A stretch of DNA of 64,000 nt from Elusimicrobiota bacterium (GCA_016212825.1 JACRDS010000143.1:1712-65711), one strand, 5' to 3'; shown: positions 12,897-44,807, counted from the first letter of the stretch. The notes: generated from the letters alone by a model not told the origin. Made by a program: numbers and translations.

Positions 12897-14714
12897 GTGA
12901 ACATCCTCGGCATCTCGGCGTATTACCACGACAGCGCCGCCGTTTTGGTGCAGGACGGCCGCATCACGGCCGCGGCCCAGGAAGAGCGCTTCACGCGCAA
13001 GCGGCACGATTCCGGCTTTCCCATCGAGGCCATCGCCTACTGCCTGCAGGCCGCGGGCCTGAAGGTCTCGGACCTCGACCTCGTCGGCTTCTACGACAAG
13101 CCCTTCCTCAAGTTCGAGCGCATGCTCAAGACCTACATGGCCTACGCGCCCCGGGGTTTCAAGCCCTTCGCCATGGCCGTGCCCATGTGGCTCAAGGGCA
13201 AGCTCTGGATGAAGTCCCACATCCGCGAGCAGCTCGGCTTCAAGGGCCAGATCCTCTTCCCCGAGCATCACGAGTCCCACGCCGCCTCCGCCTTCTACCC
13301 CTCCCCCTTCGGCCGCGCCGCCATCCTCACCATGGACGGCGTGGGCGAATGGGCCACGGCCTCCATCGGCACCGGCATCGGCAACAAGATCCAGCTCAAC
13401 CGCGAACTCCGCTTCCCCCACTCTCTGGGTCTGCTCTACTGCGCCTTCACCTACTACACCGGCTTCAAGGTCAACTCCGGCGAGTACAAGGTCATGGGCT
13501 TGGCCCCCTACGGCGAGCCCAAGTACGCGGACCTCATCTATAAGGAACTCATCGACCTCAAGGAAGACGGCTCGCTCAAGCTCAACCAGGAGTATTTCGA
13601 CTACTGCGCCGGCCTGGCCATGACCAGCGAGAAGTTCCACAAGCTCTTCGGCGGCCCGCCGCGCCGGCCCGAGTCCGAGCTCACCCAGAAGGAGATGGAC
13701 CTCGCCGCCTCGGTGCAGGCCGTGACCGAGGAGGCCATGCTGCGCATGGCCCGCCACGCCCGCAAGGTCACCGAGCTCAAGGACCTCTGCCTGGCCGGCG
13801 GCGTCGCCCTCAACTGCGTGGGCAACGGCCGCATCCTGCGCGAGAAGGTCTTCAACCGCATCTGGATCCAGCCCGCCTCCGGCGACGCGGGCGGCGCCCT
13901 GGGCGCGGCGCTGCTGTTGTGGCACCAGTATCTGGGCAACGAGCGCACGGTCTCGGAAGGCCGCGACTCCCAGCAGGGCTCGCTGCTGGGCCCCGGCTTC
14001 TCGGACGAGCAGATCGGCGCCTGGCTCAAGGAAAAGGGCATCCCCCACAAGAAACTCGACCCAAAGGACGTGGCCCGCGAGACCGCGGCTCTTTTGAAGG
14101 ACGGGCATGTGGTCGGCTGGTTCCAGGGCCGCATGGAGTTCGGCCCCCGGGCTTTGGGCAGCCGCAGCATCATCGGCGACGCGCGCAACGTCGAGATGCA
14201 GGCCAAGATGAACCTTAAGATCAAGTTCCGCGAGTCCTTCCGGCCCTTCGCCCCCTCGGTGCTGGCCGAGCACTACTCCGAGTACTTCGACATCGAGTGC
14301 GAGAGCCCCTACATGCTGCTCACCGCCCCGGTGAAGGAGTCGCGGCGCATCGCCATGACCGGGGAGCAGAACAAGCTCTGGGGCATCGCCAAGCTCAACG
14401 TGCCCCGCTCCGACCTGCCCGCCGTCACCCACGTGGACTACTCCGCGCGCCTGCAGACCGTCAACCGGGCGGACAACGCCCCCTACCACGAGCTCATCAG
14501 CGAGTTCCGCAAGCTCACCGGCTGCGGGGTCATCGTCAACACCTCCTTCAACGTGCGCGGCGAGCCCATCGTCTGCCGGCCGCAGGAGGCCTATACCTGC
14601 TTCATGCGCACGCACATGGACTACCTGGTCCTGGGCAGCTACCTTCTGGAGAAGAAGGCGCAGGACAGCTTCAAAGAGGATCAGTCATGGATGAAGGAAT
14701 TCGCGCTCGACTAG
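12897..14714 (+). CDS. carbamoyltransferase (NodU/CmcH/SxtI family)
   Basis: 605 aa: MNILGISAYYHDSAAVLVQDGRI.AAAQEERFTRKRHDSGFP... Full-length family architecture. GTG start. Confidence 0.92.
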   Translation: MNILGISAYYHDSAAVLVQDGRITAAAQEERFTRKRHDSGFPIEAIAYCLQAAGLKVSDLDLVGFYDKPFLKFERMLKTYMAYAPRGFKPFAMAVPMWLKGKLWMKSHIREQLGFKGQILFPEHHESHAASAFYPSPFGRAAILTMDGVGEWATASIGTGIGNKIQLNRELRFPHSLGLLYCAFTYYTGFKVNSGEYKVMGLAPYGEPKYADLIYKELIDLKEDGSLKLNQEYFDYCAGLAMTSEKFHKLFGGPPRRPESELTQKEMDLAASVQAVTEEAMLRMARHARKVTELKDLCLAGGVALNCVGNGRILREKVFNRIWIQPASGDAGGALGAALLLWHQYLGNERTVSEGRDSQQGSLLGPGFSDEQIGAWLKEKGIPHKKLDPKDVARETAALLKDGHVVGWFQGRMEFGPRALGSRSIIGDARNVEMQAKMNLKIKFRESFRPFAPSVLAEHYSEYFDIECESPYMLLTAPVKESRRIAMTGEQNKLWGIAKLNVPRSDLPAVTHVDYSARLQTVNRADNAPYHELISEFRKLTGCGVIVNTSFNVRGEPIVCRPQEAYTCFMRTHMDYLVLGSYLLEKKAQDSFKEDQSWMKEFALD

Positions 14715-15118
14715 GCCTGCCCGTCGCGGCCCCGGGCAAGGAGCGCAAGGACCTGCGCGTCTTCGGCTTCGGCCTGGCCCTCATCCTGATGTTCTTCGCC
14801 TACCTGTCCCGGCGCAAGGGCGGGGCCGCCGCTCCCTACGAGCTGTGCCTGGCAGCGGCCTGCGCCCTGCTGGGCGGCCTCTGGCCCATGGCCCTGGGCC
14901 CCGTGTACAAGCCCTGGATGAGGGCCGTAGCCGTCATCGGCAAGGTCAACACCTGGCTGGTCATGGGCATCCTCTACTACCTAATCATCACGCCCTACGC
15001 CTTCCTGGCCCGCCTCATCGGCGGCGACCTGCTCGACGAGAGGATGCGCGACCGGGGAAGCTACTGGCACCTGCGGGAAGACGTCCCCGCGCCGGAATCC
15101 TACCGCAACCAGTTCTAA
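14687..15118 (+). CDS. SxtJ-family small membrane protein
   Basis: 143 aa from MDEGIRARL. Three or four TM helices. Overlaps the carbamoyltransferase 3' end by 28 nt. Position and size match the sxtJ-like genes that follow carbamoyltransferases. Confidence 0.7.
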   Translation: MDEGIRARLGLPVAAPGKERKDLRVFGFGLALILMFFAYLSRRKGGAAAPYELCLAAACALLGGLWPMALGPVYKPWMRAVAVIGKVNTWLVMGILYYLIITPYAFLARLIGGDLLDERMRDRGSYWHLREDVPAPESYRNQF

Positions 15119-15127
15119 GGAGAGACC

Positions 15128-15286
15128 ATGCCCAAGATGGAAACCCTGCGCGAACTCTGGGACTTCCTCAAGAAGCGCAAACTCTACTGGCTGGCCCCCA
15201 TCCTCATCGTCCTGCTCCTGCTGGGCGGCCTGATCATCCTCTCCGAGACCACGGCCGTGGCGCCCTTCGTCTACACCCTGTTCTAG
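15128..15286 (+). CDS. DUF5989/SxtK-like 52-aa membrane peptide
   Basis: Not in the ORF track because it is under 60 aa. MPKMETLRELWDFLKKRKLYWLAPILIVLLLLGGLIILSETTAVAPFVYTLF: basic N-terminus, one TM helix, and the APF.YTLF tail characteristic of this family. Confidence 0.65.
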   Translation: MPKMETLRELWDFLKKRKLYWLAPILIVLLLLGGLIILSETTAVAPFVYTLF

Positions 15287-15349
15287 GGCCGGAAGGCTGT
15301 AATACTTCCGGGCCGGCTCCGTATCCATAGGCAGGAGGCCAGTCCCCGC

Positions 15350-15865
15350 ATGCCCGAGCCAGGCGCTCCCCAGGACTTCGCCTCCCTCTATGACCTCTAC
15401 TTCTCCTGCGTCTGCGGCTTCGTGCGCAGCCAGGTCAGCGACCCGGCGGACGCCGATGACGTGGTCTCCCGCGCCTTCGAGCGCCTGCTCGAGCGCTTGG
15501 GCACCTACCGCCCGGAACGCGGCGCCTTCGAATCCTGGCTCTTCGCTGTGGTCCGCAACGCGGTGCGCGACCATTTCCGCAGCCGGCGCTGGCGCGCCCT
15601 CTTCTCCCTGGAAGAGGCGCCGGAGCCGGCCGGCCGCGAGCCGGCGGCCGAGGCGCGCCTGCTGGCCGAGGAGGAGCGCGCCGGCCTGCTCCGGGCGCTG
15701 CAGCGCCTCGACGAGCGCAGCCGCGAGGTCCTGGGGCTCAAGTTCCAGGCCGGGCTCAACAACCGGCAGATCGCCGAGGTCCTGGACCTGGGCGAGAGCC
15801 ACGTGGGGGTGCTGGTCTATCGCGCGGTCAAGAAGCTGCAGGCCGCGCTGGGAGAGCCGTCATGA
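15350..15865 (+). CDS. ECF (group 4) sigma-70 family factor
   Basis: 171 aa. Region 2 (DADDVVSRAFERLL, ESWLFAVVRNAVRDHFR) and region 4 HTH (NNRQIAEVLDLGESHVGVLVYRAVKKL). AGGAGG Shine-Dalgarno upstream. Confidence 0.85.
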   Translation: MPEPGAPQDFASLYDLYFSCVCGFVRSQVSDPADADDVVSRAFERLLERLGTYRPERGAFESWLFAVVRNAVRDHFRSRRWRALFSLEEAPEPAGREPAAEARLLAEEERAGLLRALQRLDERSREVLGLKFQAGLNNRQIAEVLDLGESHVGVLVYRAVKKLQAALGEPS

Positions 15866-16377
15866 GTGACGCAGCGGACCGCCTCGAGAGCGATCCGGGA
15901 GCCTTGGCCGTGGCCCGGCGCCTGGCCGCCCTCGACCTCGCCGCGGAGAGCCGCATCCGGCTGAGCCTGCGGGCCCGGCTCCTGGCCCGCAGACCCACGC
16001 CCTTTTTCACCTTGCGCGGGCCGGCGGGCCTTGCGGGCGCCCTGGCCGCGGCCGCGGTCATGCTTTTGCTCCTGCGGCCGAGGACTCCGGCGCCCGCGAC
16101 TGCGCCGGCATCCCCGGCTCCGATCGCCGAAGCCCTTCCCCCCGCGGCGAAGAGGCCCGCGCAGCGCGCCGAGGGAGTCTTCGTCTCCATCCCCGCCGCC
16201 TCGCCGTTCGAGACTCACGGGACGGTCTCGGCCGGGCATCCCTTCGTGACCGTCCCCGGCCGCAGGACGCGCACCGCGCGCGGCCGGGCCGTGGTCTGGC
16301 AGTTCGAGCACGCCACGTTCCGGCTCGAGGAGCGGCCCGTGCGCATCGCAGAGCTTTTCGTCAAGCCGACGCTATGA
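15862..16377 (+). CDS. putative single-pass anti-sigma factor (no recognisable family)
   Basis: 171 aa. ATGA-coupled to the sigma gene. One TM helix (GLAGALAAAAVMLLLL) and an extracytoplasmic tail of about 100 aa. No zinc-binding H/C motif. Confidence 0.45.
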   Translation: MSDAADRLESDPGALAVARRLAALDLAAESRIRLSLRARLLARRPTPFFTLRGPAGLAGALAAAAVMLLLLRPRTPAPATAPASPAPIAEALPPAAKRPAQRAEGVFVSIPAASPFETHGTVSAGHPFVTVPGRRTRTARGRAVVWQFEHATFRLEERPVRIAELFVKPTL

Positions 16378-17360
16378 TCCGGCATACAAGGAGGCCTATC
16401 ATGAGAATCCTGCCGCTGGCGGCTGCCCTGTGCCTCGTCTCTCCTGTCGCCCGGGCTCAGGCCCAGCACCTCGACATCTCCGTGACCGACGCTCCGCTGG
16501 GCCAATTCCTAGACACGGTGTCCAAGCAGACCAAGGTCAGCTTCGTCCTCGGGCAAGGCACCGAAGACCAACGCGTGACGCTGGCGTTCAAGGGCGCCCC
16601 GGTCAGGCAGGTGCTCGACCAGATCAAGCAATCGAAAGGCCTGGGCTATCAGGAACTCGCTCCGGATATCTATCTCATCGCGGCCGAACCGGTCCTCGCG
16701 TCCTGTCCCGGGGTCCTCGCCGGATATCCCGCCCTTGACGCCAAGATCACCATCGACGTACGACAAGCCCCGTTGTCGAGCGTCTTCGCGAGAATCGGGG
16801 GAGTGACGGGGCTGCGCTTCGCGCTCGTTCCGCAGATCCGGGACTGGAAAGCCACGCTCTCCCTGCAGAAGGTCCCCGCCCGCCAGGCGGTGCAGATACT
16901 CTGCGTGGTGAAAGGGCTCTCCGTGCGCGCCGAGGGACAGGACGGCCTCATCGTCGAGGCGGCCATCCCTGAGGCGCCCAAAGCGGCCGCCTCGCGGCCC
17001 GATGGGCAGGGGCTCTTCACGGGCTACCGCGGAGTCTCGCTGTCCCTGCCCGGCCACCAGCTGGCCTTCCTCAAGAAGGGCGACCACGTCGACGTCATGG
17101 TGACCTTCGACGCCAAGATGGCCGACGAGCGCAAGGAGAAGGTCACGGCCACCATCCTGCAGAACGTCCGCATCGTGGACGTCTCCAAGCCCGGCAAGGG
17201 CGAGGAGCGCGGGACGGTCCAGATCCTGCTCAACCCCAACGAGGCCCAGTACGCCGCCCTGAGCGACGCCCAGGGCGACCTGCACGTCGCGCTGCGCGCT
17301 CCGGGGGACACGGAGATGCACCCCATGGAGATGGCGAGCTTCCGCAAGCTCTTCCGCTAG
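16374..17360 (+). CDS. secreted protein: two tandem STN/secretin-N0-like domains plus a CpaB/RcpC-like C-terminal domain
   Basis: 328 aa with a signal peptide. Domain 1 (nt 16470-16685): LDISVTDAPLGQFLDTVSKQTKVSFVL...VTLAFKGAPVRQVLDQI...GLGYQ. Domain 2 (nt 16743-16964): ITIDVRQAPLSSVFARIGGVTGLRFAL...ATLSLQKVPARQAVQIL. C-terminus (nt 17016-17357): GYRGVSLSLPG...GDHVDVMVTF...ATILQNVRIVDV...LLNPNEAQYAAL..GDL.VALR. Confidence 0.65.
   Translation: MIRHTRRPIMRILPLAAALCLVSPVARAQAQHLDISVTDAPLGQFLDTVSKQTKVSFVLGQGTEDQRVTLAFKGAPVRQVLDQIKQSKGLGYQELAPDIYLIAAEPVLASCPGVLAGYPALDAKITIDVRQAPLSSVFARIGGVTGLRFALVPQIRDWKATLSLQKVPARQAVQILCVVKGLSVRAEGQDGLIVEAAIPEAPKAAASRPDGQGLFTGYRGVSLSLPGHQLAFLKKGDHVDVMVTFDAKMADERKEKVTATILQNVRIVDVSKPGKGEERGTVQILLNPNEAQYAALSDAQGDLHVALRAPGDTEMHPMEMASFRKLFR
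17132..17168 (+). repeat. 37-nt exact repeat shared by the two CpaB-like genes (second copy at 18095-18131)
   Basis: caaggagaaggtcacggccaccatcctgcagaacgtc occurs in both genes and encodes KEKVTATILQNV. Confidence 0.9.
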
Positions 17361-17369
17361 GAGAACGAT

Positions 17370-18323
17370 ATGAGAACTTCACCCTGGATCCTGGTCCTCG
17401 CCCTGGCCGCGCCCGCGGCCGGCGCCTCCTTCCCCACGCCGGACATGGCCGCCGCGGAGAAGGAGATGCAGCTCTTCTACCACTCCCTCAAGCCGGGCGC
17501 GGACCCCGCGGTCAAGAGGCCGGCCTGGCTGGAGGAAGAGCTCCCCAAGATGGCCGAGCGCAAGGTCTGGCGCGACCCGGAGGCCGGCGACCTCAGCGAG
17601 GCCCAGCTCTGGCAGGCCCCGGCCTCGGTCCTCTACGAGTTCTTCAAGGCCGTCCGCATGGACTCGCCGGAGTCCTCCCTCTACGACCGGGAGACCGACT
17701 ACAACAACCTGCTGCTGAACTACCGGATAGCGATCGACCGCATCCGGCGTTCCAAGCTGCAAGACTCCCTGGGCGGCCGCGGCGCGGCCCTGCTGGCGGC
17801 CTTCAGCCGTGCATTCGAGCCACTCGACGGCCTGTTGGACTCGCTGCCCTCCGGAGACACCGAGGCTTTCCAGCGGGCGGCGGCAGAGGTGGCCCGCGAC
17901 GCGCGCGCGGCCTTCGCGCAGCTCTCCGCCCCGCCGCAGGCCCCCGAGAAGGTGACTTACTGGGCCAAGGACCGCCTGGTACCGGGCTATCGCGGCTTCT
18001 CCTTGCCCCTACCGGGGCACCAGCTGGCCTTCATCAAGAAGGGCCAGCGGGTGGACGTCCTGGTGACCTTCGAGGCCCTGATGAAGAGGAACGTCAAGGA
18101 GAAGGTCACGGCCACCATCCTGCAGAACGTCGTCGTGATCGACGTGCTCAGGCCGGACCAGCCGGAGGGCCGGGGCGCCCTGCTGCTGCTGGTCAACCCC
18201 AACGAGGCGCAGTACGCGGCCCTCAGCGTCCTGCAGGGGGACGTGCGCATCACGGCGCGGGCCGAGGGCGACACCGCGATGGCGCCCATGGAGATGGCCT
18301 CGCTGCGCAAGCTCTTCAAGTAG
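17370..18323 (+). CDS. secreted protein with a CpaB/RcpC-like C-terminal domain (paralog of the preceding gene's C-terminus)
   Basis: 317 aa with a signal peptide. Unassigned helical N-terminal ~200 aa. The C-terminal ~115 aa are about 65% identical to 17016-17357. AGGAGAA Shine-Dalgarno. Confidence 0.6.
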   Translation: MRTSPWILVLALAAPAAGASFPTPDMAAAEKEMQLFYHSLKPGADPAVKRPAWLEEELPKMAERKVWRDPEAGDLSEAQLWQAPASVLYEFFKAVRMDSPESSLYDRETDYNNLLLNYRIAIDRIRRSKLQDSLGGRGAALLAAFSRAFEPLDGLLDSLPSGDTEAFQRAAAEVARDARAAFAQLSAPPQAPEKVTYWAKDRLVPGYRGFSLPLPGHQLAFIKKGQRVDVLVTFEALMKRNVKEKVTATILQNVVVIDVLRPDQPEGRGALLLLVNPNEAQYAALSVLQGDVRITARAEGDTAMAPMEMASLRKLFK

Positions 18324-18331
18324 GAGGGGAT

Positions 18332-19756
18332 ATGTCCGCCTGGCGGTGGCTGGCCCTGGCGCTGGTCCTGCCGGCCAGCCTGTGCCTGGCCGCGGCCTGC
18401 CGCCGGGCCCGGGAGACGCGCTGGCAGGAGCGGTCGGTCGCCGGCCTCACGCTCTACGACCAGGGCCGCTACCAGGAGGCCCGGCCCCTGGCCCTGGAGG
18501 GGATGCGCCTGGCCGAAGAGTCCTTCGGCTCCGCCGACCTGCGCACCGCCTACGCCCTGGACTTCCTGGGCAAGGTGGAGCGCCGGCTGGGCAGGCTGGA
18601 GCGGGCCCGGGAGCTCTTCGAGCGCGCCGTGGGAATCGCCGCCGAAGCCCTGGGCCCGGACGCGCCCCAGCGGGCCCACTTCCTGGACAACCTCGCCGAG
18701 CTCCTCACGGCGCAGGGGAAATACGACGAGGCGGAGGTCCTCTACCAGGACTCCCTGCGCCTGATGCAGCGGGACTTCGGGGAGCTCAGCGTCCCCGTCT
18801 CCGCGGCCTACGCCCGGCTGGCCGCGCTCTACGTCCGCTGGGGGGTCTACGAGGAAGCCGAGCCGCTGGTGCGCCGCCTGGAGGCCATCAACACCCGGGT
18901 GGGCTCCTCTGACGAGGCCGCGGACTCCGCCGTGGCGGCGGCCCACTGCACGTTCCACCTGCAGGCCGGAGAACTCGACGCCGCCTGGGAGGACTGCACA
19001 CGGGCCCTGGCCAAGCGCCGGCGCCTGCCCAAGAACCACCTGGACCTGGCCGAGGCCCTGAGCGCGGCCGGACTCATGCACCTGCGCTCCGGCAGCGTGG
19101 AGGAGGCGCGCGCCTGTTCACAGAAGGCCCTGGCCATCTACCGGGAAAGGCCGGGCGCCGACCCCCAGGGTCTCGTGGAGAGCTGGCTCACGCTGGCCGA
19201 GGTCGCGGCGGCCGAGGGCCGCGACGCCGAGGCGGAAGAGCTCTTCGCCAAGCTGCTGCCCCTGTACTCCAACCCCTACGCTCTGGTCAAGGCCCTGGCC
19301 CGCGTGGCCGGCCACTATCAGAGCCGCGGCCGCCTCGACATCGCCGAGCGCCTGTATCTCCAGGCGCTGGCCAAGCAGGTCTCCTCTCCCAAGGCGGACA
19401 AGCGCGACCGCGAGGCCCTGCTCATGCGGCTGGCCGAGGTCTCCGTGGGTCTCGGCCGGCACGGGCGGGCCGAAGGCTACCTGCGGCGAGCCCTGGAGAC
19501 CAACGAATCCCTGCACGGCGCGCTCGACCCGGGCTCCGCGGCCATCATCGCCGCGCTGGCCCAAGTCCAGTTGGCCCGGCGCCGCCCCGATCGGGCCGAG
19601 CCCTGGCTGGCGCGCCTGCGCCGGCTGGCCGACTCCCGCGGGCGCGACAGCTCCGTGGGCCGGGACGTGCTGCGCCGCATGGCGCGCCTCTACGAACGCA
19701 TGGGTCGGGCCGACAAGGCGGCCCGGCTGCAGGCCCAGGTGGACGCGGGGTCCTAG
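18332..19756 (+). CDS. TPR-repeat lipoprotein
   Basis: 474 aa. Lipobox-like LCLAAAC. About ten 42-aa TPR_10/12-type repeats (..A.L.NLA.LY..QGRY.EAE.L..RAL...E). AGGAGGGG Shine-Dalgarno. Confidence 0.8.
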   Translation: MSAWRWLALALVLPASLCLAAACRRARETRWQERSVAGLTLYDQGRYQEARPLALEGMRLAEESFGSADLRTAYALDFLGKVERRLGRLERARELFERAVGIAAEALGPDAPQRAHFLDNLAELLTAQGKYDEAEVLYQDSLRLMQRDFGELSVPVSAAYARLAALYVRWGVYEEAEPLVRRLEAINTRVGSSDEAADSAVAAAHCTFHLQAGELDAAWEDCTRALAKRRRLPKNHLDLAEALSAAGLMHLRSGSVEEARACSQKALAIYRERPGADPQGLVESWLTLAEVAAAEGRDAEAEELFAKLLPLYSNPYALVKALARVAGHYQSRGRLDIAERLYLQALAKQVSSPKADKRDREALLMRLAEVSVGLGRHGRAEGYLRRALETNESLHGALDPGSAAIIAALAQVQLARRRPDRAEPWLARLRRLADSRGRDSSVGRDVLRRMARLYERMGRADKAARLQAQVDAGS

Positions 19757-19760
19757 GGAG

Positions 19761-20384
19761 CTACTTGAGGCGCGGCGCGCAGACCGGCCCGCCGATGCCG
19801 AAGAAGTTGGTCTGCTTGACCCGCCCCATCTCCCGGTACTGCCCGACCAGGGCCATGAGCGGGTCCCTCAGGTGCAGGAACAGCAGCCGGTGCGCGGGCT
19901 TCTTCTTGGCGGCCTTGACGCCCACGATCTGCAGGGAGAACTCGCACATGAGGTCGCGCTCGGTGCAGTTGGTCTTGTCCATCACGAAGCGCTCCTCGTC
20001 CTCCGTGATAGGCCCGAAGCCCGCCATCATCAGGATCCTGGCGGAGTCGGCCTTGGCCTCCTTCTCGATAGCGCAGTTCTCCTCGGGCATGCGCACCGCG
20101 CCCCGCTTCTTGCCGCCCACGATCTGCTTGAGCGCGTAGAGCTCCAGGCGCTTGGCCGCAAAGGGCTCGCGCAGCTTCTCGGGCAGCGTCGCGGGGTCAA
20201 CGGCCAGGAACTCTGGCACCAGGTCGGCAGGGAGCTCGGCCGTGGGCATGTCCAGGAAGGCCTGGACCAGCTTCACCTTGTCGTCGGCCGCGGGCGCCTC
20301 GGCCTTGAGCTCGGCCAAGGCCCCGGCCCAGGCCGCCGCGGGCAGGGAGAGGATGAGCAGGGCCGGCCACAAGGATCTAGCCAC
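19761..20384 (-). CDS. hypothetical secreted protein
   Basis: 207 aa. Signal peptide MARSLWPALLILSLPAAAWA. GTG start overlapping the xerD stop by 8 nt. No recognisable domain. Confidence 0.55.
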   Translation of the reverse strand: MARSLWPALLILSLPAAAWAGALAELKAEAPAADDKVKLVQAFLDMPTAELPADLVPEFLAVDPATLPEKLREPFAAKRLELYALKQIVGGKKRGAVRMPEENCAIEKEAKADSARILMMAGFGPITEDEERFVMDKTNCTERDLMCEFSLQIVGVKAAKKKPAHRLLFLHLRDPLMALVGQYREMGRVKQTNFFGIGGPVCAPRLK

Positions 20385-21222
20385 GGGGATGATGCCTCCT
20401 GTGCGAGTCCTTCAAGCCGGACTTCTCCAGATGCGTGTAGATCTGGGTGGTGGAGAGGCTGGAGTGGCCCAGCATCTCCTGCACGCTGCGCAGGTCCGCC
20501 CCGCCCTGCAGGAGGTGCGTGGCGAAGGTGTGGCGCAGGACATGGGGATGGACCCGCCCCTCCAATCCGGCGCGGGAGGCCAGGGCCTGCAGGTCGCGCC
20601 AGAACTGCACGCGCGAGAGGGGCCGGCCCCGCCGGTTGAGGAAGACCGCGCTCTCTCCCGCGTTCGGGAAGCGGCGCTGGCGCGCGAGCAGGAACTGCTC
20701 GAGGAGCGCCAGGGCCCGCTCGTGCACCGGGATGAGGCGCTCCTTGGCGCCCTTGCCCAGCACGCGCACCCAGCCGTCCTGCAGGTTGAGGTAGCCCGCC
20801 TTGAGGGCCAGGAGCTCCGAGACCCGCATGCCCGTGGCGTAGAGGAGCTCGAGCATGGCGCGCAGGCGCAGGGACTCGTAGGAGCCCCCGACCGCAGCGG
20901 CCAGGAGGCGGCCGACCTCTGCCGGGGTCAGGAACTCGGGCAGGCGCGCCGGCCGGCGCGGGGAGCGCAGCTCCGCGGCCGGGTTGGCCGCCGTGCGGCG
21001 CTCCGCAGCCTGGAAGAAGTAGAAGGAGCGCAGGGCTTCGATCTTGCGCGCCAAAGTGCTGGCCTCGAGGCCCTGCCCGCTCCTGAGCTCCCAGAGGTAG
21101 TCCTCCAGGTCCTGCCGAGAAGCCTTCAGAGGGTCCAGACCGCGCCGGCCGAGATGCTCCAGGAACTGCGCCAGGTCCGAAAGGTAGGCCGAAGTCGTGT
21201 TGCGGGCCAGCCCCCGCTCCAC
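20377..21222 (-). CDS. xerD: tyrosine site-specific recombinase XerD/XerC (5' end probably extends upstream via a non-canonical start)
   Basis: ERGLARNTTSAYLSDL core-binding domain. Catalytic R (ATGMRVSEL), HPHVLRHTFATHLL, GHSSLSTTQIYTH. The track start is the GTG at 21222, but conserved N-terminal helix residues LLEEYRRYISV lie in frame upstream. Confidence 0.9.
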   Translation of the reverse strand: MERGLARNTTSAYLSDLAQFLEHLGRRGLDPLKASRQDLEDYLWELRSGQGLEASTLARKIEALRSFYFFQAAERRTAANPAAELRSPRRPARLPEFLTPAEVGRLLAAAVGGSYESLRLRAMLELLYATGMRVSELLALKAGYLNLQDGWVRVLGKGAKERLIPVHERALALLEQFLLARQRRFPNAGESAVFLNRRGRPLSRVQFWRDLQALASRAGLEGRVHPHVLRHTFATHLLQGGADLRSVQEMLGHSSLSTTQIYTHLEKSGLKDSHRRHHPRG

Positions 21223-26315: not shown

Positions 26316-26609
26316 TCAGCGCCGGCCGCGCCACTGGGCGCGCAGTTGCGCCTGCTTCTCGGCCGGGAGCTTCTTGAACTCCTCCCAGCGCCGGAGCAGT
26401 TCCTGCCGCTGGCCGGACGGCAGCTTTCGGAAGCGCTCGTAGCGCCGCTGCAGCGTCTGCCTCTGCCCCGGGGACATCTCCCCATAGAGCCGGTGGTTGC
26501 GCAGCACCGTCTCGCGGCGCGCCGGGGATAGGTCCTCCCACGCCCGGCCGCCGCCGCTGGCGGGGGCGCAGAGCAGGGATAGCAGCAGCGCGGCGAGCGC
26601 GCCCCTCAT
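26316..26609 (-). CDS. DUF3106-like periplasmic protein
   Basis: 97 aa with a signal peptide. Repeated W..LSPA.R......Y..MSPGQRQ.L..R...F..LP..QRQELLRRWEEF. ATGA overlap with the anti-sigma stop. Confidence 0.65.
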   Translation of the reverse strand: MRGALAALLLSLLCAPASGGGRAWEDLSPARRETVLRNHRLYGEMSPGQRQTLQRRYERFRKLPSGQRQELLRRWEEFKKLPAEKQAQLRAQWRGRR

Positions 26610-27064
26610 GGCTCCCTCCGGGGCCAGAGGCCCTGGGCCGCTTCCCAGTCCATGAAAAGATCGAGATGCTCCATCAGCTCCAGCTCCTCGACCGCCGGCA
26701 TCAGGACCACGCCGCTCCTCTCCGGCGGAACGGGCCGGAAGAGGAAGAGCCCCGCGGCGGCCAGCGCGGCGGCCGGGACCCAGAGCAGCCGCCGCGGCCG
26801 GGAGGGCCGCGGCTCCGCCCGGATGCGGGCGGCCAGGCGCGCCCAGAGAGGGGCCGCCAGCGCCTTGTCCCACGAAAGCGGCGCGCCGTCGGGCGCCGAA
26901 CTGCGGCCGCAGAGGGCGCGCAGGTCCTCGTGCTCCTTGCGGCAGAGCGCGCACGCGGCCGCATGCGCCAGAGCCTCGGCCGGCGCCTGGTCGGCCCGGG
27001 GCCAGGCGGCCCACAAGGACTCCCGGACCGAACGGCAGGGCTGGGGGATCTCCTTCATATTCAT
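26606..27064 (-). CDS. zinc-finger (zf-HC2-like) anti-sigma factor
   Basis: 152 aa. C-x26-H-x3-C-x2-C arrangement (PCRSV....HAAACALC), one TM helix. ATGA overlap with the sigma gene stop. Confidence 0.65.
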   Translation of the reverse strand: MNMKEIPQPCRSVRESLWAAWPRADQAPAEALAHAAACALCRKEHEDLRALCGRSSAPDGAPLSWDKALAAPLWARLAARIRAEPRPSRPRRLLWVPAAALAAAGLFLFRPVPPERSGVVLMPAVEELELMEHLDLFMDWEAAQGLWPRREP

Positions 27065-27666
27065 AGCAGCCTCTGCCTCATCTTGCGCGTGGCGGCGAAC
27101 AGCGTCGACTTCACGGTCCCCTCGCTGATCCCGAGGACTCCGGCGACTTCATCCAGAGAATAGCCTTCCAGCCTCATGGCGGCGACCTCCCTCTCCCGCG
27201 GACTCAAAGCGGCCAGGGCCCGCTCCAAGTCCAGCTTCTTCTCCAGGACCCGCGTCTCATCCTCCCGCGGCCCGGCCCTGCGCACGCTCTCCTCCCAGGT
27301 GCCCCCCTCCGAGTCCCGGGGAGCGTCCAAGGACAGCCAGTTCGACATCCGCGCCCAGCGCAGCCGCGAACGCGCGACGTTGAGCGCGATCCGCGAGACC
27401 CAGGTCTTGAAGCTCGACCTCTCCTCGAACGATTCCAGCCGCATAAAGGCCCGCACGAAGGCCTGCTGAGCCGCGTCCTGCGCGGCGTCGAGGTCGTGCA
27501 GGACGCTGAGCAGGAACCCCGCCACGGCCTTCTGGTGCCGCGAGACGAGGACCCCGAAGGCTTCGGCGTCTCCGGCGCGCGCCCTGCGGACCAGCGCCTC
27601 GTCCGTCTCCATCAATTGGACGCTCGTCGGGGGAAGAAGGTTGGGGCCCGGGCCGTCGCGTTTCAT
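27061..27666 (-). CDS. ECF sigma-70 family factor
   Basis: ETDEALVRRARAGDAEAFGVLV, FKTWVSRIALNVARS, and region 4 LSPREREVAAMRLEGYSLDEVAGVLGISEGTVKSTL. Start at 27666 (ATGA overlap with the upstream barrel gene) or at METDE (27612). Confidence 0.88.
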   Translation of the reverse strand: MKRDGPGPNLLPPTSVQLMETDEALVRRARAGDAEAFGVLVSRHQKAVAGFLLSVLHDLDAAQDAAQQAFVRAFMRLESFEERSSFKTWVSRIALNVARSRLRWARMSNWLSLDAPRDSEGGTWEESVRRAGPREDETRVLEKKLDLERALAALSPREREVAAMRLEGYSLDEVAGVLGISEGTVKSTLFAATRKMRQRLL

Positions 27667-28574
27667 ATTCTGAGGGTGACGCCGAGACCGTAGTAGCTTT
27701 GGAGCCCGGCTCCGCCGCCCGGGTCGAAGAGCTCGCAGGTGCCCTTGACCTGGACCTTGGCCCACTTGGTCGCGAGGCTGAACGCATAGGCGCTCGTAGC
27801 CGGCCCGTCCTGTTTGTAGGTGGTCCGGCTGTATCGGAAGGAAGGCTTAAGCCTGGGCCAGGCGGTCCAGGAGCCCTTGATGCTGACGCTCGTCTCCGGG
27901 AAGCCGAACACGGCCGGATTGGCCCCGACGGTCCCGGACAACTCGGCGGCGCGCGCCAGCTCCGGCAGGGTGTCCGAGTAAAAGCTCCGCGTCAGCTGGG
28001 CATCAAGGTCGAGATCTCCCCATGCCGCCCCGCTGATGATGGAGATGTCCGTCTCTCCGGCGTCGATCGCGGCGGGCTCCCCCCCCGGCCCTGGAGGCCC
28101 CCCGGGACGGCCGCGGCCGGCGCGCGTGCGCGCCGCGACCAGCGCCGGCGCCGTCGAGTCTTCCTTGTGCGCGATGCGCCGGATCCCGCCGCCCAGGTCG
28201 ACGCGGGAGAGTCCGCCCCGCGGGTAGAACGAGTAGGTCGCGTCGGCGCCCACCGACTCGTTGCGGTAGCCCGCGACCTTGGGGGTGACCGAGAGCTCGG
28301 CTCCCGCGTCCCAGCGCTTGTCCGTGTAGCCGGCCCGCGCCGCGTAGGCCGTGGTGGCTTTGATCTCGTCGGAATGATAGGAGGCGAAGCTGGGCCTGAG
28401 ATAGGCTCCCTTCGCGCTCCCCACCTCGAAGAAGCCGGAGGTCGCCACATAGCTGGCCGGTCCGTAGAGCTGGTCTCCCCCCGCCTTCCAGGCGGCTGCG
28501 CCAGCCGACCCGGCCGCGGAGGCGAGGACCAGGGCGCCGGCCGCAAGCAGGGCCCCGGCCCGAGTGCCGGTCAT
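27663..28574 (-). CDS. putative outer-membrane beta-barrel protein
   Basis: 303 aa with a signal peptide. Alternating beta-strand pattern. One Gly/Pro/Arg-rich loop (RAGRGRPGGPPGPGGEP). First gene of the ECF operon. Confidence 0.55.
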   Translation of the reverse strand: MTGTRAGALLAAGALVLASAAGSAGAAAWKAGGDQLYGPASYVATSGFFEVGSAKGAYLRPSFASYHSDEIKATTAYAARAGYTDKRWDAGAELSVTPKVAGYRNESVGADATYSFYPRGGLSRVDLGGGIRRIAHKEDSTAPALVAARTRAGRGRPGGPPGPGGEPAAIDAGETDISIISGAAWGDLDLDAQLTRSFYSDTLPELARAAELSGTVGANPAVFGFPETSVSIKGSWTAWPRLKPSFRYSRTTYKQDGPATSAYAFSLATKWAKVQVKGTCELFDPGGGAGLQSYYGLGVTLRI

Positions 28575-37129: not shown

Positions 37130-38047
37130 TCATCGGTCCGAGTCGCGGCCTCCGCCGAAGCGGTAGCCCACGGCGAAATGGTGCGTGCTCCCCAGGTCGC
37201 CGGCCGGGTTGAAGGCGTAGTCGATGTCCACGCTGTCTTTGACGCGCAGGCCGAGGCCGATCCTGAGGCCGCCGAAGTTGCCGAGGTCCGGCGTCCGGGT
37301 GTTGACTCCCAGGCGGAACGCGGCCGCGCCGACGTCCTTGACGGCGAGCTCGTACTCGCTGCCGATGGCCACGTAGGCCGGGTCATAGACCGGGATGACC
37401 GCGTCCAGGGCCAGCCACCAGTGCTCCATGGCCCGCCAAGCCGCGCCGGCCGCGGCCCGGGTCGGCAGGGGCCGGCCCTCGCTCTCGTAGCGCAAAGAGC
37501 CGCCGATGTTGTGCCCGGAAGCGGCCAGGATCCAGTCCTCACCGAGGCGGTACTGGCCGCCCGCGTCGAAGGTCAGGGTCCGGGCGCTCGCCACGATCTT
37601 GGAGTCCACGTACTTCGCGGTGGCCCCCAGGTCAGCGCCCAAAGCGTCCGTGCCGTAGGTGAAGCCGTAGACCGTGTCGCTGGGTCCGTAGGTGCCGGTC
37701 TCGGTCCCCTGCTCGTCGCGGCTCTCCAGGGTCCCGTAGCCCACGTGGTGGAAGCTGGCGCCCAGGTGGTGCCGCCCGAGGGTCAACCCGTAGCCGGCGT
37801 AGTCGCTGCCGACGCCCGCGTAGAGGAAGGAGTGCGTGAAATAGGCGTGATTGGAGCGCACGCCCCCGATGGCCGCGGGGTTGGACGCCACTGCGCCCGC
37901 GCCGGAGGCCAGGGCCTGGGCGGCCTCGCCCATGCCCAGGGCGCGCACGTCGAGGGGCAGGCTGAGGAAGTCGGCGGAGGCGGGCCGGGCCGCCCGGGCC
38001 CAGGGGGCCAGGAGGACCAGGAGTCCGGCCAGGACCGTTCGCCTCAT
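37130..38047 (-). CDS. PorV/PorQ-like outer-membrane barrel
   Basis: 305 aa with a signal peptide. N-terminal FLSLPLDVRALGMGEAAQALASGAGAVASNPAAIG, which I recognise as the PorV/PorQ (UPF0164-like) signature. ATGA overlap with the giant gene's stop. Confidence 0.55.
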   Translation of the reverse strand: MRRTVLAGLLVLLAPWARAARPASADFLSLPLDVRALGMGEAAQALASGAGAVASNPAAIGGVRSNHAYFTHSFLYAGVGSDYAGYGLTLGRHHLGASFHHVGYGTLESRDEQGTETGTYGPSDTVYGFTYGTDALGADLGATAKYVDSKIVASARTLTFDAGGQYRLGEDWILAASGHNIGGSLRYESEGRPLPTRAAAGAAWRAMEHWWLALDAVIPVYDPAYVAIGSEYELAVKDVGAAAFRLGVNTRTPDLGNFGGLRIGLGLRVKDSVDIDYAFNPAGDLGSTHHFAVGYRFGGGRDSDR

Positions 38048-43170: not shown

Positions 43171-44807
43171 GGGATGACCCCCGACTGCACCAGGATGGCC
43201 GGCGAGACCACCAGGTCGATGGTCCGGCCGCCGAACTCGGAGGCCGTGATCACCTGCTCGTAGTTCCACTTGAGCAAGGTCTTCTTATAGTTCTCCCCCG
43301 AGGTCACGCCGTTGAAGTCCGCGCTGGTGGCGATGTTGCCCGCGTCGCCCACCACGTAGAAGTCGTACTTCTCCCAGGTCCCGTCCGAGTATGTGATGCT
43401 GGCCCGGTCGTGCAGGCGCGAGGCCCCCTGCGGATTGGTGATGGAACTCGGCCGCGCCGCGTCCTCGCAGGCTTGGGCGGTGCAGTTCACCGGCCCCACC
43501 GCGCAGCCCGCGGCCCCGCAGGCCGCCCCCCCGCCCAGGATGCGGGTCTGGAAGCCCGTGGCCACGTAGTCGTAGGCCGTGATGTTGGGCGCGCCGGCCG
43601 GCTGCCAGCCGTACTTCTCCGTCCCGTTTATCTTATAGGAATAGTCGTCGAAGAGCGTGCTCCAGAAGGCCGTGCCCGCGGCCACGGTGCGGAAGGAGTT
43701 GGCGTCCGGATCGTAGATCGCGCGGTCCTCGCCCAGGAGCGTGTTGACCAGATGCCCGCCCGTCGCGTTCTCCCGGATGGAGTCCACGGTGTTGGAGCGC
43801 CCGGTCTCGAAGGCCGTGATGAAATAGTCCGGCGCCGCGCCGGTCTTGCCGTTGAGGTAGCGCAGGGCCGGGGCCAGTTCCACGGGCAGGGCCTGGTTGA
43901 AGCGGGCCTGGTAGTAGAAGTAGTTGAAGCTGCTCTCGCGTTCGTTGAGGGCCACGAATTTGAACTGGTCCGCGGCCGGGCGCACGATGTACTGCTCCAG
44001 GCGCACCCGCTGGCCGCCCACGTCGATCATGGTCTTGCCTTCCTGATACTCGGCCAGACGCGCCTCGACCGCGGCCGCGGACTGCACCGCCTCCTTGGCC
44101 AGCCCCAGAGCCACCTCGCGGCGCACGTCCTTCTTGAAATCCTCGTTGTCCAGGTCGGCCGCGACGGGCCGGGCTTCCTGGGCCCGCATCCGGGCCGGTT
44201 CCTTCTTCGCCGGAGGCGCGGCGGCCCGGGCGCCGGAGTATTCCAGCGGCCGGTCGGGCAGGACGCGCAGGCTGCGCGCGGCGCGGCCGTCGCCGATCTC
44301 GAGCTCCTCTCCCAGGAGCGTCTTGACCGCCACCACGCCCTCCATGACCTCCACGTTCATCTCGCTCTTGTCGTTGATGTCCACCACGAACTCGGTGCCG
44401 CGCACCGAGCAGACCGCCGCCGGGGTCTTCACCGTGAAGCGCTTGTTCGCGGCCGAGAGGGCCTTGCGCACCCAGGAGTGGATGACGCCCAGGTCCAGGA
44501 AGACGGCGCCGCCCCGCTGGTCGGCCTCGCTCAGGACGAAGCTGGTGTTGGGCCCCATCTTGATGCGGGAGCCGTCCGGGAAGGTCACCGTGGCCGCGGA
44601 CTGCAGGCCGGTTCGGATGCGGTCCTTGGCCTCCAGGCGGTAGGGCACGTTGGAGATGACGCGCCAGGCCCCGCTGTCGCGGAAGCTCACCTCGACGTGG
44701 CCGGAACGCTCGGTCACGTCCGCCTGGGCGCACAGAAGGGCGGGCAGGAGCGGCACGAGGCCCAGGGCGACGAGGAGACGCAGACCCGCGGCGGCAGTCC
44801 CAGGCAC
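43167..44807 (-). CDS. secreted FecR-domain protein with an unassigned Cys-containing C-terminal domain of about 300 aa
   Basis: 546 aa. GTG start, signal peptide. FecR signature LEAKDRIRTGLQSAATVTFPDGSRIKMGPNTSFVL......FTVKTPAAVCSVRGTEFVV. Confidence 0.75.
   Translation of the reverse strand: MPGTAAAGLRLLVALGLVPLLPALLCAQADVTERSGHVEVSFRDSGAWRVISNVPYRLEAKDRIRTGLQSAATVTFPDGSRIKMGPNTSFVLSEADQRGGAVFLDLGVIHSWVRKALSAANKRFTVKTPAAVCSVRGTEFVVDINDKSEMNVEVMEGVVAVKTLLGEELEIGDGRAARSLRVLPDRPLEYSGARAAAPPAKKEPARMRAQEARPVAADLDNEDFKKDVRREVALGLAKEAVQSAAAVEARLAEYQEGKTMIDVGGQRVRLEQYIVRPAADQFKFVALNERESSFNYFYYQARFNQALPVELAPALRYLNGKTGAAPDYFITAFETGRSNTVDSIRENATGGHLVNTLLGEDRAIYDPDANSFRTVAAGTAFWSTLFDDYSYKINGTEKYGWQPAGAPNITAYDYVATGFQTRILGGGAACGAAGCAVGPVNCTAQACEDAARPSSITNPQGASRLHDRASITYSDGTWEKYDFYVVGDAGNIATSADFNGVTSGENYKKTLLKWNYEQVITASEFGGRTIDLVVSPAILVQSGVIP

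What the first reader, a model, noticed from the sequence alone, without database searches (positions are those of the whole stretch)
15350..19756. ECF sigma / anti-sigma module coupled to a (STN/N0)x2-CpaB-like protein, a CpaB-like paralog and a TPR lipoprotein
Five genes lie in one direction, joined by ATGA overlaps at 15862 and 16374 and good Shine-Dalgarno sites at 17370 and 18332. The third protein has two tandem ~70-aa domains with the STN/secretin-N0 pattern (LDISVTDAPLGQFLDTVSKQTKVSFVL...VTLAFKGAPVRQVLDQI; ITIDVRQAPLSSVFARIGGVTGLRFAL...LSLQKVPARQAVQIL). These are fused to a C-terminal domain resembling the Flp/Tad pilus protein CpaB/RcpC. The fourth protein carries a ~65% identical copy of that C-terminal domain behind an unrelated helical N-terminus.

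STN domains are known as the signalling domain of FecA-type TonB-dependent transducers, where they contact the anti-sigma factor, and as the N0 domain of secretins. Here there is neither a TonB-dependent barrel nor a secretin pore, nor any tad/cpa gene. An STN-CpaB fusion under an ECF sigma / anti-sigma pair would be an unusual cell-surface-signalling architecture.
Basis: partly seen in the sequence, partly recalled or inferred. Interest (0 to 1): 0.65.

Follow-up and report, generated by a model that had tools for sequence, protein, structure and literature searches.

The report
ECF sigma operon driving pilus-ring paralogs
This is a self-regulated stress-sigma-factor operon, conserved across the phylum Elusimicrobia, whose dedicated cargo is a set of secreted copies of the ring-forming domain of the Tad pilus protein CpaB/RcpC carrying interchangeable front ends (here two secretin-type STN domains), an uncharacterised pairing worth testing, although the STN domains are an optional add-on rather than the core.

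Summary
The five genes and the domain calls are real. Pfam, AlphaFold2 and Foldseek confirm two STN/N0 domains fused to the D2 ring domain of RcpC/CpaB. They also confirm a paralog with a helical N-domain that has no detectable relative, and a TPR_12 protein. One correction: gene 3 most likely starts at 16401 (strong SD), not at the ATGA at 16374.

Comparative genomics changes the picture. In 41 Elusimicrobia species-representative loci the conserved unit is ECF sigma, single-pass anti-sigma, then one to three secreted D2 proteins. An invariant promoter, TGTAATACT-N13-CGTAT, precedes it. That promoter also sits in front of separately transcribed D2 and TPR genes. The genuine CpaB lies in 33 separate Tad loci, and no locus is mixed.

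STN is present only in the window's own lineage and one other. At the same syntenic site close relatives carry TPR or chagasin-like heads on 76-93% identical D2 domains, and the anti-sigma is nearly unchanged in the relative with the TPR head.

My reading is an autoregulated ECF module whose output is periplasmic D2-ring paralogs. A FecA-like STN/anti-sigma signalling contact is not supported, and this is not the edge of a Tad cluster. Function is inferred, not shown.

The parts
15298..15324 (+). ECF-type promoter motif TGTAATACT-N13-CGTAT, about 25 nt upstream of the sigma start codon
   Evidence: Invariant in 10 instances from 7 loci, including distant loci with otherwise unrelated flanks (A2). 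It is the only copy in the window, against 0.00-0.03 expected. It is present upstream of sigma in 28 of 34 species-representative loci. Recognition by this sigma factor is inferred.
15350..15865 (+). ECF sigma factor (171 aa)
   Evidence: Pfam Sigma70_r2 63.6 bits and Sigma70_r4_2 36.3 bits. NCBIfam TIGR02937 sigma70-ECF 112.4 bits against a cut-off of 42.9. The best subfamily, TIGR02952, scores 121.7 against 206, so it is not a member.
15862..16377 (+). Putative single-pass anti-sigma factor (171 aa): conserved cytoplasmic N-terminus, one TM helix, Pro/Ala-rich linker, and a conserved C-terminal beta-rich block (GRAVVWQFEHATFRLEERPVRIAELF)
   Evidence: A 4-nt overlap with the sigma gene. It is conserved next to sigma in the relatives, and 39 distinct homologs were aligned. 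There is no Pfam, NCBIfam or PDB sequence match. The anti-sigma role is inferred from position and topology.
16401..17360 (+). Secreted STN x2 - RcpC-D2 fusion protein (319 aa; 328 aa if read from the in-frame ATG at 16374)
   Evidence: Pfam STN and RcpC are above their cut-offs. AF2 pLDDT is 85. Foldseek finds 9gzr RcpC and then secretin N0 domains. The SD site and homologs support the start at 16401.
16467..16682 (+). STN/N0 domain 1 of gene 3
   Evidence: AF2 strands and helices E24-32 to E90-94 of the 319-aa form. Pfam STN covers aa 65-103 of the 328-aa form.
16743..16961 (+). STN/N0 domain 2 of gene 3
   Evidence: AF2 E115-124 to E182-187. Weak PDB sequence matches to LspD and PilQ N0 fall here. 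NCBIfam HofQ matches aa 121-189.
17028..17294 (+). RcpC D2-like domain of gene 3
   Evidence: Pfam RcpC covers aa 232-308. AF2 residues 210-298 have pLDDT above 90. Foldseek 9gzr, E 3e-7.
17319..17357 (+). Conserved C-terminal tail HPMEMASFRKLFR of gene 3 (short amphipathic helix)
   Evidence: The consensus is nearly identical in the gene-3-slot, gene-4 and Tad CpaB groups. Equivalence to the RcpC oligomerisation helix alpha7 (PMC12307814) is inferred from its position only.
17370..18323 (+). Secreted helical-domain - RcpC-D2 paralog (317 aa)
   Evidence: AF2 pLDDT 87.5, pTM 0.77. D2 matches 9gzr at E 1e-5, and the helical N-domain (aa 24-183) has no significant PDB fold or sequence match. Present in at least 31 of the 41 relatives' loci.
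18332..19756 (+). TPR_12 repeat protein (474 aa) with a signal peptide and possible lipoprotein cysteine
   Evidence: Pfam TPR_12 158.8 bits. Homologs are in the operon (L001, L013, L016) or under their own copy of the promoter motif (L004, L007, L021). PilW and Tgl similarities are far below their cut-offs.

Best explanation
This is one member of an Elusimicrobia-wide, autoregulated ECF sigma/anti-sigma envelope-signalling module. Its dedicated output is a small set of secreted paralogs of the ring-forming D2 domain of the Tad pilus alignment protein CpaB/RcpC, plus a TPR protein.

Proposed sequence of events:
1. A single-pass membrane protein holds the sigma factor. This anti-sigma role is inferred.
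2. An unknown envelope cue, read by the protein's conserved periplasmic C-terminal block, releases sigma.
3. Sigma transcribes from TGTAATACT-N13-CGTAT. That covers its own operon and, in relatives, extra D2 and TPR genes.
4. The D2 proteins have signal peptides. They lack the TM anchor and the D1/SAF domain of CpaB, but keep D2 and the invariant tail HPMEMASFRKLF[KR].
5. In Pseudomonas RcpC, D2 plus a following amphipathic helix build a C12 ring. I therefore infer that these proteins oligomerise through D2 and the tail, with each other (gene 3 with gene 4) and possibly with the Tad CpaB ring.
6. That would display variable N-terminal heads in the periplasm. In this genome the heads are two secretin-type N0/STN domains and a helical domain with no detectable relative.

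Shown: gene order, promoter conservation, domain identities, and the paralogy with Tad CpaB together with the separation of the two kinds of locus.
Inferred: anti-sigma function, promoter use by this sigma, ring formation, and any link to the Tad machine.
For: Gene order and context:
- Sigma, anti-sigma, then D2 protein(s) recur in six independent contexts with unrelated flanks.
- The same order is seen in 41 of 75 species-representative loci. The other 33 classified loci are canonical Tad loci (SAF-D2 CpaB, secretin, TadA, TadB, TadC). None is mixed.

Promoter:
- The motif is invariant in 10 instances. These include separately transcribed short-D2 units (L001, L004) and a divergent TPR gene (L007).
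- There is one copy in the window against 0.00-0.03 expected.

Proteins:
- D2 identity: Pfam RcpC and Foldseek 9gzr for both proteins.
- All D2 proteins have signal peptides and the same tail as the Tad CpaB P0119.
- RcpC D2 forms a C12 ring, and helix alpha7 after D2 is required for oligomerisation (PMC12307814).
- The gene-3-slot, gene-4 and Tad D2 domains form three coherent groups, 52-57% identical between groups.
- At the same syntenic site different heads (I42+STN x2, I42, TPR) sit on D2 domains that are 93%, 87% and 76% identical to the window's.
- Five MAGs carry both an ECF-linked and a Tad-linked locus.
Against: - No experiment exists for any member.
- The anti-sigma has no recognisable anti-sigma domain. 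Its cytoplasmic part is short, about 50 aa in the window.
- Ring formation is extrapolated from a Pseudomonas protein too diverged to align by sequence. So the tail = alpha7 equivalence rests on position only.
- In the AF2 monomer models the tail has low confidence.
- Co-occurrence with Tad loci could be scored in only 5 of 70 MAGs, because only the best 80 of 226 hits were kept. A functional link to Tad is therefore untested.
- The D2 proteins could be sensors rather than, or as well as, outputs.
Confidence: 0.55

Rival explanations
1. RseB-like co-sensor model. The secreted D2 proteins are primarily part of the input side. They bind the conserved periplasmic C-terminal block of the anti-sigma and control its stability, as RseB does with RseA. 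Their heads (STN, TPR, I42, helical) act as interchangeable ligand or partner sensors.
For: - The D2 protein always follows the anti-sigma directly.
- The anti-sigma C-terminal block is conserved across the family.
- Different heads sit on closely related D2 domains, which suits a changeable sensor on a constant docking module.
Against: - Extra D2 and TPR genes have their own copy of the sigma-type promoter, which fits regulon output.
- There are two to three D2 paralogs per module.
- There is no detectable similarity or docking motif between the anti-sigma C-terminus and D2 or its tail (hhalign probability 0.1%).
- No complex prediction could be run.
Confidence: 0.2
2. Tad-modulator model. 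The secreted D2 proteins are anchor-less mimics of CpaB. On ECF activation they insert into or cap the Tad alignment ring, or bind the N-domain-less secretin, to block or remodel pilus assembly. The STN x2 head supplies in trans the N0-type ring that the Elusimicrobial Tad secretin lacks.
For: - D2 is 52-54% identical to the Tad CpaB D2 on average, and the tail is virtually identical.
- The Tad secretin of this phylum is 265 aa with no N0/N1 domains, and its CpaB lacks the secretin-binding beta-hairpin (PMC12307814).
- Both locus types occur in 5 MAGs.
Against: - No Tad genes lie within 6 kb of any of the 41 ECF-linked loci.
- It is unknown whether every genome with the module has a Tad system. 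None is in the 64-kb window.
- A simple decoy would not need elaborate conserved heads such as the gene-4 helical domain.
Confidence: 0.15
3. One reading: a FecA/FecR-like cell-surface signalling system in which the STN domains of gene 3 contact the anti-sigma factor to transmit a signal.
For: - STN domains are confirmed.
- STN-to-sigma-regulator contacts are the basis of CSS (PMC7186176).
- Weak FecR_C-like signal on STN1, 21.2 bits against a cut-off of 24.4.
- An STN-D2 fusion downstream of an ECF pair recurs in a second lineage, L015.
Against: - STN was not found in any of the 41 species-representative ECF-linked loci.
- In L013, where TPR replaces STN, the anti-sigma C-terminal block is nearly identical.
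- The anti-sigma lacks FecR, FecR_C and STN.
- There is no TonB-dependent transducer.
- The nearest STN relatives are secretin-type or free-standing, and no TonB-receptor family is among the 25 families listed for them.
Confidence: 0.07
4. The locus is a degenerate fragment or the edge of a conventional Tad/Flp pilus cluster.
For: The D2 domain clearly derives from CpaB/RcpC.
Against: - Tad genes neighbour 0 of the 41 ECF-linked loci, and sigma or anti-sigma genes neighbour 0 of the 33 Tad loci.
- Codon position GC3 of 0.88-0.95 fits intact, expressed genes.
- The three D2 groups are conserved across the phylum.
Confidence: 0.01

Closest known systems
RcpC/CpaB, the Tad pilus alignment complex protein (P. 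aeruginosa RcpC, PDB 9gzr; PMC12307814)
   Same: - The C-terminal domains of genes 3 and 4 are the D2 (Pfam RcpC) domain, by Pfam and by fold.
- A short amphipathic helix follows D2, as in RcpC, where that helix is needed for dodecamer formation.
- The Elusimicrobial Tad CpaB has the same D2 and an identical tail.
   Different: - There is a signal peptide instead of a TM anchor.
- There is no D1/SAF domain and no C-terminal beta-hairpin.
- The genes are never in a Tad locus. They lie downstream of an ECF sigma/anti-sigma pair and its conserved promoter motif.
- They carry unrelated N-terminal heads.
- They score below the NCBIfam CpaB cut-off (44.6 and 25.9 against 71).
FecI-FecR-FecA / PupI-PupR-PupB cell-surface signalling
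   Same: An ECF sigma, a single-pass membrane regulator, and an STN-fold domain on a neighbouring envelope protein.
   Different: - There is no TonB-dependent transducer.
- The anti-sigma has no FecR or CCSSD/STN domains.
- The STN domains are secretin-N0-like and dispensable across the family.
Secretin N0 domains (PilQ, GspD, InvG, HofQ)
   Same: Both STN modules have the N0 b-a-b-b-a-b-b fold. Their best sequence and fold matches are to secretin N-termini.
   Different: There is no N1-N3 domain and no secretin pore domain. The modules are fused to RcpC D2 instead.
RpoE-RseA-RseB type ECF operons (sigma, anti-sigma, periplasmic partner co-transcribed)
   Same: An autoregulated operon encoding the sigma, a single-pass anti-sigma and secreted periplasmic proteins. 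This comparison rests on established knowledge of the sigma-E system, not on a test made here.
   Different: The periplasmic proteins are RcpC-D2 paralogs, not LolA-like RseB. No homology to RseA or RseB was detected. Only L015 has a DUF4367 anti-sigma domain.

Membership tests
ECF (group 4) sigma-70 factors | Sigma-2 and sigma-4 domains only, small size | tested here: met
   Pfam r2 63.6 bits and r4_2 36.3 bits, with no r3, in 171 aa. TIGR02937 scores 112.4 against a cut-off of 42.9.
ECF (group 4) sigma-70 factors | Co-transcribed cognate anti-sigma factor | tested here: inconclusive
   A translationally coupled single-pass membrane protein is conserved in all relatives. No known anti-sigma domain is detected.
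ECF (group 4) sigma-70 factors | Conserved bipartite autoregulatory promoter upstream of the operon | tested here: met
   TGTAATACT-N13-CGTAT is invariant in 10 instances and present in 28 of 34 species-representative loci. Use by this sigma is not tested.
BldN-type ECF (NCBIfam TIGR02952) | Score above the equivalog cut-off | tested here: not met
   121.7 bits against a cut-off of 206.45. The ECF-Hub group could not be assigned with these tools.
FecIRA-type cell-surface signalling | TonB-dependent transducer with an N-terminal signalling domain | tested here: not met
   No Plug or TonB-receptor domain in the module. No TonB-receptor family is among the 25 families listed for the 104 nearest STN relatives.
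FecIRA-type cell-surface signalling | FecR-type regulator (FecR plus a C-terminal STN-like domain) | tested here: not met
   The anti-sigma proteins have no FecR or FecR_C hits even at E up to 5.
RcpC/CpaB (Tad alignment complex) | D2 (PF16976) domain | tested here: met
   Gene 3 scores 40.8 bits against a cut-off of 28.8. Gene 4 scores 24.1 bits, below the cut-off, but matches 9gzr by Foldseek at E 1e-5.
RcpC/CpaB (Tad alignment complex) | N-terminal TM anchor plus D1/SAF domain | tested here: not met
   Cleavable-type signal peptides, and STN or helical heads instead. No SAF hit.
RcpC/CpaB (Tad alignment complex) | Encoded in a tad/cpa locus next to the secretin and TadA/B/C | tested here: not met
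   0 of 41 ECF-linked loci have Tad genes within 6 kb. The true CpaB is found in 33 separate Tad loci.
RcpC/CpaB (Tad alignment complex) | Equivalog score (TIGR03177) | tested here: not met
   44.6 and 25.9 bits against a cut-off of 71.
RcpC/CpaB (Tad alignment complex) | Dodecameric ring formation through D2 and the following helix | not testable with these tools
   This needs multimer modelling or biochemistry. It is inferred only from PMC12307814.
Secretins | C-terminal secretin pore domain (PF00263) | tested here: not met
   Only N0-like domains are present. There is no Secretin hit in gene 3 or elsewhere in the window.
Pilotin-type TPR lipoproteins (PilW, Tgl) for gene 5 | Family-level score and a lipobox | tested here: not met
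   PilW scores 31.4 against 154, and Tgl 17.3 against 225. The 'AAC[RK]' motif is conserved but is not a canonical lipobox.

The most novel reading that the evidence does not exclude
Elusimicrobia have duplicated the ring-forming core of the Tad alignment complex into a separate, ECF-controlled family of soluble periplasmic ring subunits with interchangeable heads (N0/STN, TPR, chagasin-like, an unmatched helical domain). On an envelope signal these either build a stand-alone, secretin-less periplasmic ring scaffold or co-assemble with CpaB to rewire the Tad machine. In this lineage the STN x2 head supplies in trans the N0 ring that the phylum's truncated secretin lacks. That would be a stress-regulated, modular remodelling of a type IV filament machine.
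Probability: 0.25. Interest if true: 0.75.

Novelty: new variant of a known kind. Interest (0 to 1): 0.55.

Why it matters
ECF sigma modules are defined by their conserved partners. I found none described with RcpC/CpaB-domain proteins as the partner or regulon. The ECF re-classification paper never mentions CpaB, RcpC, pilus or secretin in its main text. Full-text searches found only two papers mentioning both topics, each with one or two passing mentions of CpaB or RcpC.

The RcpC D2 ring was solved only in 2025 and is known solely as a Tad component. A phylum-wide family of secreted D2 paralogs under dedicated transcriptional control would show that this ring module has been reused outside the pilus locus.

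It would also provide:
- a defined promoter, sigma and anti-sigma triple, which may be usable as an orthogonal regulatory part;
- a natural example of different heads on a constant oligomerisation domain;
- a handle on envelope biology in a phylum with almost no cultured members.

Tried and rejected
1. Tail mimicry. I thought the anti-sigma C-terminus (RPVxIxELF) might mimic the D2 tail (HPMEMASFRKLF) and dock on D2. The profile-profile comparison gave probability 0.1%, so I dropped the idea.
2. Anti-sigma C-terminal block as a truncated DUF4367. The L015 anti-sigma has a genuine DUF4367 (30.8 bits). hhalign of the family block against it gives only E 0.0016 and probability 16% over 40 columns. 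This is left as inconclusive.
3. PDB sequence-profile searches returned nothing significant for the anti-sigma C-terminus, the gene-4 N-domain or the 220-aa 'G5s' protein. The gene-4 helical domain also has no significant Foldseek match.
4. Mapping the RcpC ring-interface residues onto the window proteins failed. Neither the D2 profile nor the Elusimicrobial CpaB finds 9gzr by sequence.
5. The word-indexed homolog search with the STN x2 region alone returned nothing, not even the self-match, so that search was wasted. The exhaustive HMMER search replaced it.
6. Contexts of the free-standing STN x2 proteins. The third query found three short contigs with unrelated neighbours, plus ordinary secretins. 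None of this was informative.
7. The ECF group could not be assigned, because no ECF-Hub classifier is available. The best NCBIfam subfamily is below its cut-off.
8. The sigma-70 promoter and terminator scan of 15100-20500 found nothing above chance.

Full report
**1. Observation**

The five plus-strand ORFs exist as described. GC3 of 0.88-0.95 marks four of them as coding. The Ala/Pro/Arg-rich gene 2 fell outside my composition filter.

The sigma/anti-sigma ATGA overlap at 15862 is real. It is called in all ten gene-called relatives.

The second ATGA, at 16374, is probably not the start that is used:
- AAGGAGG lies 7 nt upstream of the ATG at 16401.
- The database gene call (P0001, 319 aa) starts there.
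- All homologs begin MR(I/S)L..., which matches that start.

The SD sites at 17370 and 18332 are present.

**2. Domain identities**

| Gene | Result |
|---|---|
| 1 | ECF sigma: r2 and r4_2; TIGR02937 112 bits against a cut-off of 42.9; no subfamily reached |
| 2 | No family hit at all |
| 3 | Pfam STN 42.8 bits and RcpC 40.8 bits, both above cut-off |
| 4 | Pfam RcpC 24.1 bits, below cut-off; D2 confirmed by fold |
| 5 | TPR_12, 158.8 bits |

Gene 3:
- The AF2 model (pLDDT 85) has two b-a-b-b-a-b-b modules, a b-rich domain and a low-confidence terminal helix.
- Foldseek ranks RcpC 9gzr first (E 3e-7).
- Next come secretin N0 domains (InvG, PilQ, GspD, XcpQ), the FpvA signalling domain and the PupR STN subdomain.

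Gene 4:
- It shares 59% identity with gene 3 over the last 133 aa.
- Its AF2 model (pLDDT 87.5, pTM 0.77) is a helical N-domain plus D2.
- D2 matches 9gzr at E 1e-5. The helical domain matches nothing significant.

**3. What RcpC is**

The 2025 structure paper (PMC12307814) describes P. aeruginosa RcpC as follows:
- a TM helix;
- D1;
- D2, which forms a C12 ring;
- linker L3, whose amphipathic helix alpha7 packs on the neighbouring D2 and is required for oligomerisation;
- a C-terminal beta-hairpin that completes the beta-sheet of the secretin N-domain.

**4. Comparative genomics**

Homologs are almost entirely from Elusimicrobia MAGs.

Close relatives share the window's synteny: carbamoyltransferase, SxtJ, DUF5989, sigma, anti-sigma, gene 3, gene 4, TPR, then XerD and RecA. 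These loci are L001-L004, L013 and L016.

Distant relatives have completely different flanks but keep sigma, anti-sigma and a short D2 protein of about 170 aa. L005, L009 and their near-identical copies L006 and L010 add the helical-D2 protein and a 220-aa protein. L007 has only the single D2 protein, plus a divergent TPR gene.

I scanned GTDB species-representative genomes with the D2-plus-tail profile and classified the loci by tblastn:

| Locus type | Loci |
|---|---|
| ECF-linked | 41 |
| Canonical Tad (Flp, TadE, SAF-D2 CpaB, secretin, TadA, TadB, TadC) | 33 |
| Mixed | 0 |
| Uninformative fragment | 1 |

Five MAGs carry both types. This is a lower bound, because only the best 80 of 226 hits were retained.

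**5. Promoter**

TGTAATACT-N13-CGTAT lies about 25-30 nt upstream of the sigma start codon (up to about 50 nt for L007's divergent TPR gene).
- It is invariant in all 10 aligned instances.
- It is the only copy in the window, against 0.00-0.03 expected.
- It is present upstream of sigma in 28 of 34 species-representative loci. In L023 it lies upstream of a TPR-sigma unit.
- Second copies precede separately transcribed short-D2 genes in L001, L002 and L004, and the divergent TPR gene in L007 and L021.

This is the signature of an autoregulated ECF operon. It places the D2 and TPR proteins in the inferred regulon.

**6. The D2 family**

- Every ECF-linked D2 protein has a signal peptide and ends in [HR]PME[MI]ASFRKL[FI][KR].
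- The Tad CpaB of the phylum (P0119: TM, SAF, D2) ends in the same HPMEMASFRKLFR and has no beta-hairpin.
- The Tad secretin there is only 265 aa, a signal peptide plus the pore core, with no N0/N1 domains.
- The gene-3-slot, gene-4 and Tad D2 domains form three coherent groups. Nearest neighbours fall within the same group in 43 of 50, 28 of 31 and 34 of 34 cases. Mean identity between groups is 52-57%. The tail consensus is nearly identical in all three.

**7. The STN domains are accessory**

STN is found only in the window, L001-L004 (two copies) and L015 (one copy in each of two tandem genes).

The window's gene-3 D2 compares as follows:

| Locus | Head | D2 identity to window |
|---|---|---|
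| L004 | I42 + STN x2 | 93% |
| L016 | I42 only | 87% |
| L013 | TPR | 76% |

All three occupy the same syntenic slot. The L013 anti-sigma C-terminal block, GRAVVWEFAHAAFLLEDRPVRIEELF, is nearly identical to the window's.

The exhaustive HMMER search found only two 50%-identity clusters with STN x2 fused to D2, namely P0001 and P0003. The other near relatives are free-standing secreted STN x2 proteins of about 200 aa and true secretins.

Of the 104 nearest relatives, 96 hit Pfam STN, 25 hit GspD_N0 and 12 hit Secretin. No TonB-receptor family is among the 25 families listed.

**8. Anti-sigma**

Thirty-nine distinct homologs share this layout:
- a conserved cytoplasmic N-terminus;
- one TM helix;
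- a Pro/Ala-rich linker;
- a conserved C-terminal block, G..VVWE.E.A.F.LERR.....DIF....L.

There are no Pfam or PDB relatives. In L015 the anti-sigma carries a genuine DUF4367, and the family block aligns weakly to its C-terminus. The anti-sigma function is inferred from translational coupling, topology and conservation.

**9. Interpretation**

My best-supported reading is an autoregulated ECF module whose dedicated output is secreted D2-ring paralogs with interchangeable heads, plus a TPR protein (confidence about 0.55).

It remains open whether these proteins form their own rings, join the Tad CpaB ring, or feed back on the anti-sigma. I rank the rivals as follows:

| Rival | Confidence |
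|---|---|
| RseB-like co-sensor | 0.20 |
| Tad modulator | 0.15 |
| Edge of a Tad cluster | 0.01 |

**10. Novelty**

The literature searches found no description of an ECF module coupled to RcpC/CpaB-domain proteins.

It is a new variant of a known kind: an ECF sigma/anti-sigma module with a previously undescribed, phylum-specific partner family.

Interest is moderate (0.55). The architecture is conserved and unexplained, and it links to a newly solved pilus component. However, the STN feature that drew attention is peripheral, and function is inferred only.

Noticed in passing
window 27061-27765 (-), with a possible partner ORF at 26606-27064 (-): A second ECF sigma factor (Sigma70_r2, r4_2 and Sigma70_ECF hits), unrelated to the module studied.
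   Followed up: no
window 38044-44807 (-): A 546-aa FecR-domain protein lies next to a 1741-aa PQQ_2/BamB-like beta-propeller protein. The 38-42 kb region shows unusually high GC skew (+0.16 to +0.20).
   Followed up: no
L011 4287-5861: The Elusimicrobial Tad secretin is only 265 aa, a signal peptide plus the pore core with no N0/N1 domains. The adjacent CpaB lacks the C-terminal beta-hairpin that binds the secretin N-domain in P. aeruginosa. This suggests a different CpaB-secretin coupling in this phylum.
   Followed up: partly
P0137-P0147; L091 3135-3764: A family of free-standing secreted STN x2 proteins of about 190-220 aa, 31-40% identical to the window's STN region. P0139 adds the same TPR hairpin seen as the head of L013 gene 3. 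The one readable context is unrelated (SDR and MarR-like genes).
   Followed up: partly
L004 8001-9341; L016 5257-6351: A chagasin-like peptidase-inhibitor domain (PF09394, Inhibitor_I42) serves as an alternative or additional head on the same D2 domain in close relatives.
   Followed up: no
L015 8518-11640: In a more distant lineage, an ECF sigma and an anti-sigma with a genuine DUF4367 domain are followed by two tandem single-STN-D2 genes. The second gene lacks the canonical C-terminal tail.
   Followed up: partly
L005 11024-11692 and homologs (A7): In most Elusimicrobiales-type modules the fifth gene is not TPR. It is a conserved secreted protein of about 220 aa with invariant Cys and THPW motifs, and it has no Pfam or PDB sequence relative.
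   Followed up: partly
window 12897-15290: A carbamoyltransferase, an SxtJ-like gene and a DUF5989 gene lie immediately upstream. The trio is syntenic only in close relatives and is probably a functionally separate unit.
   Followed up: no
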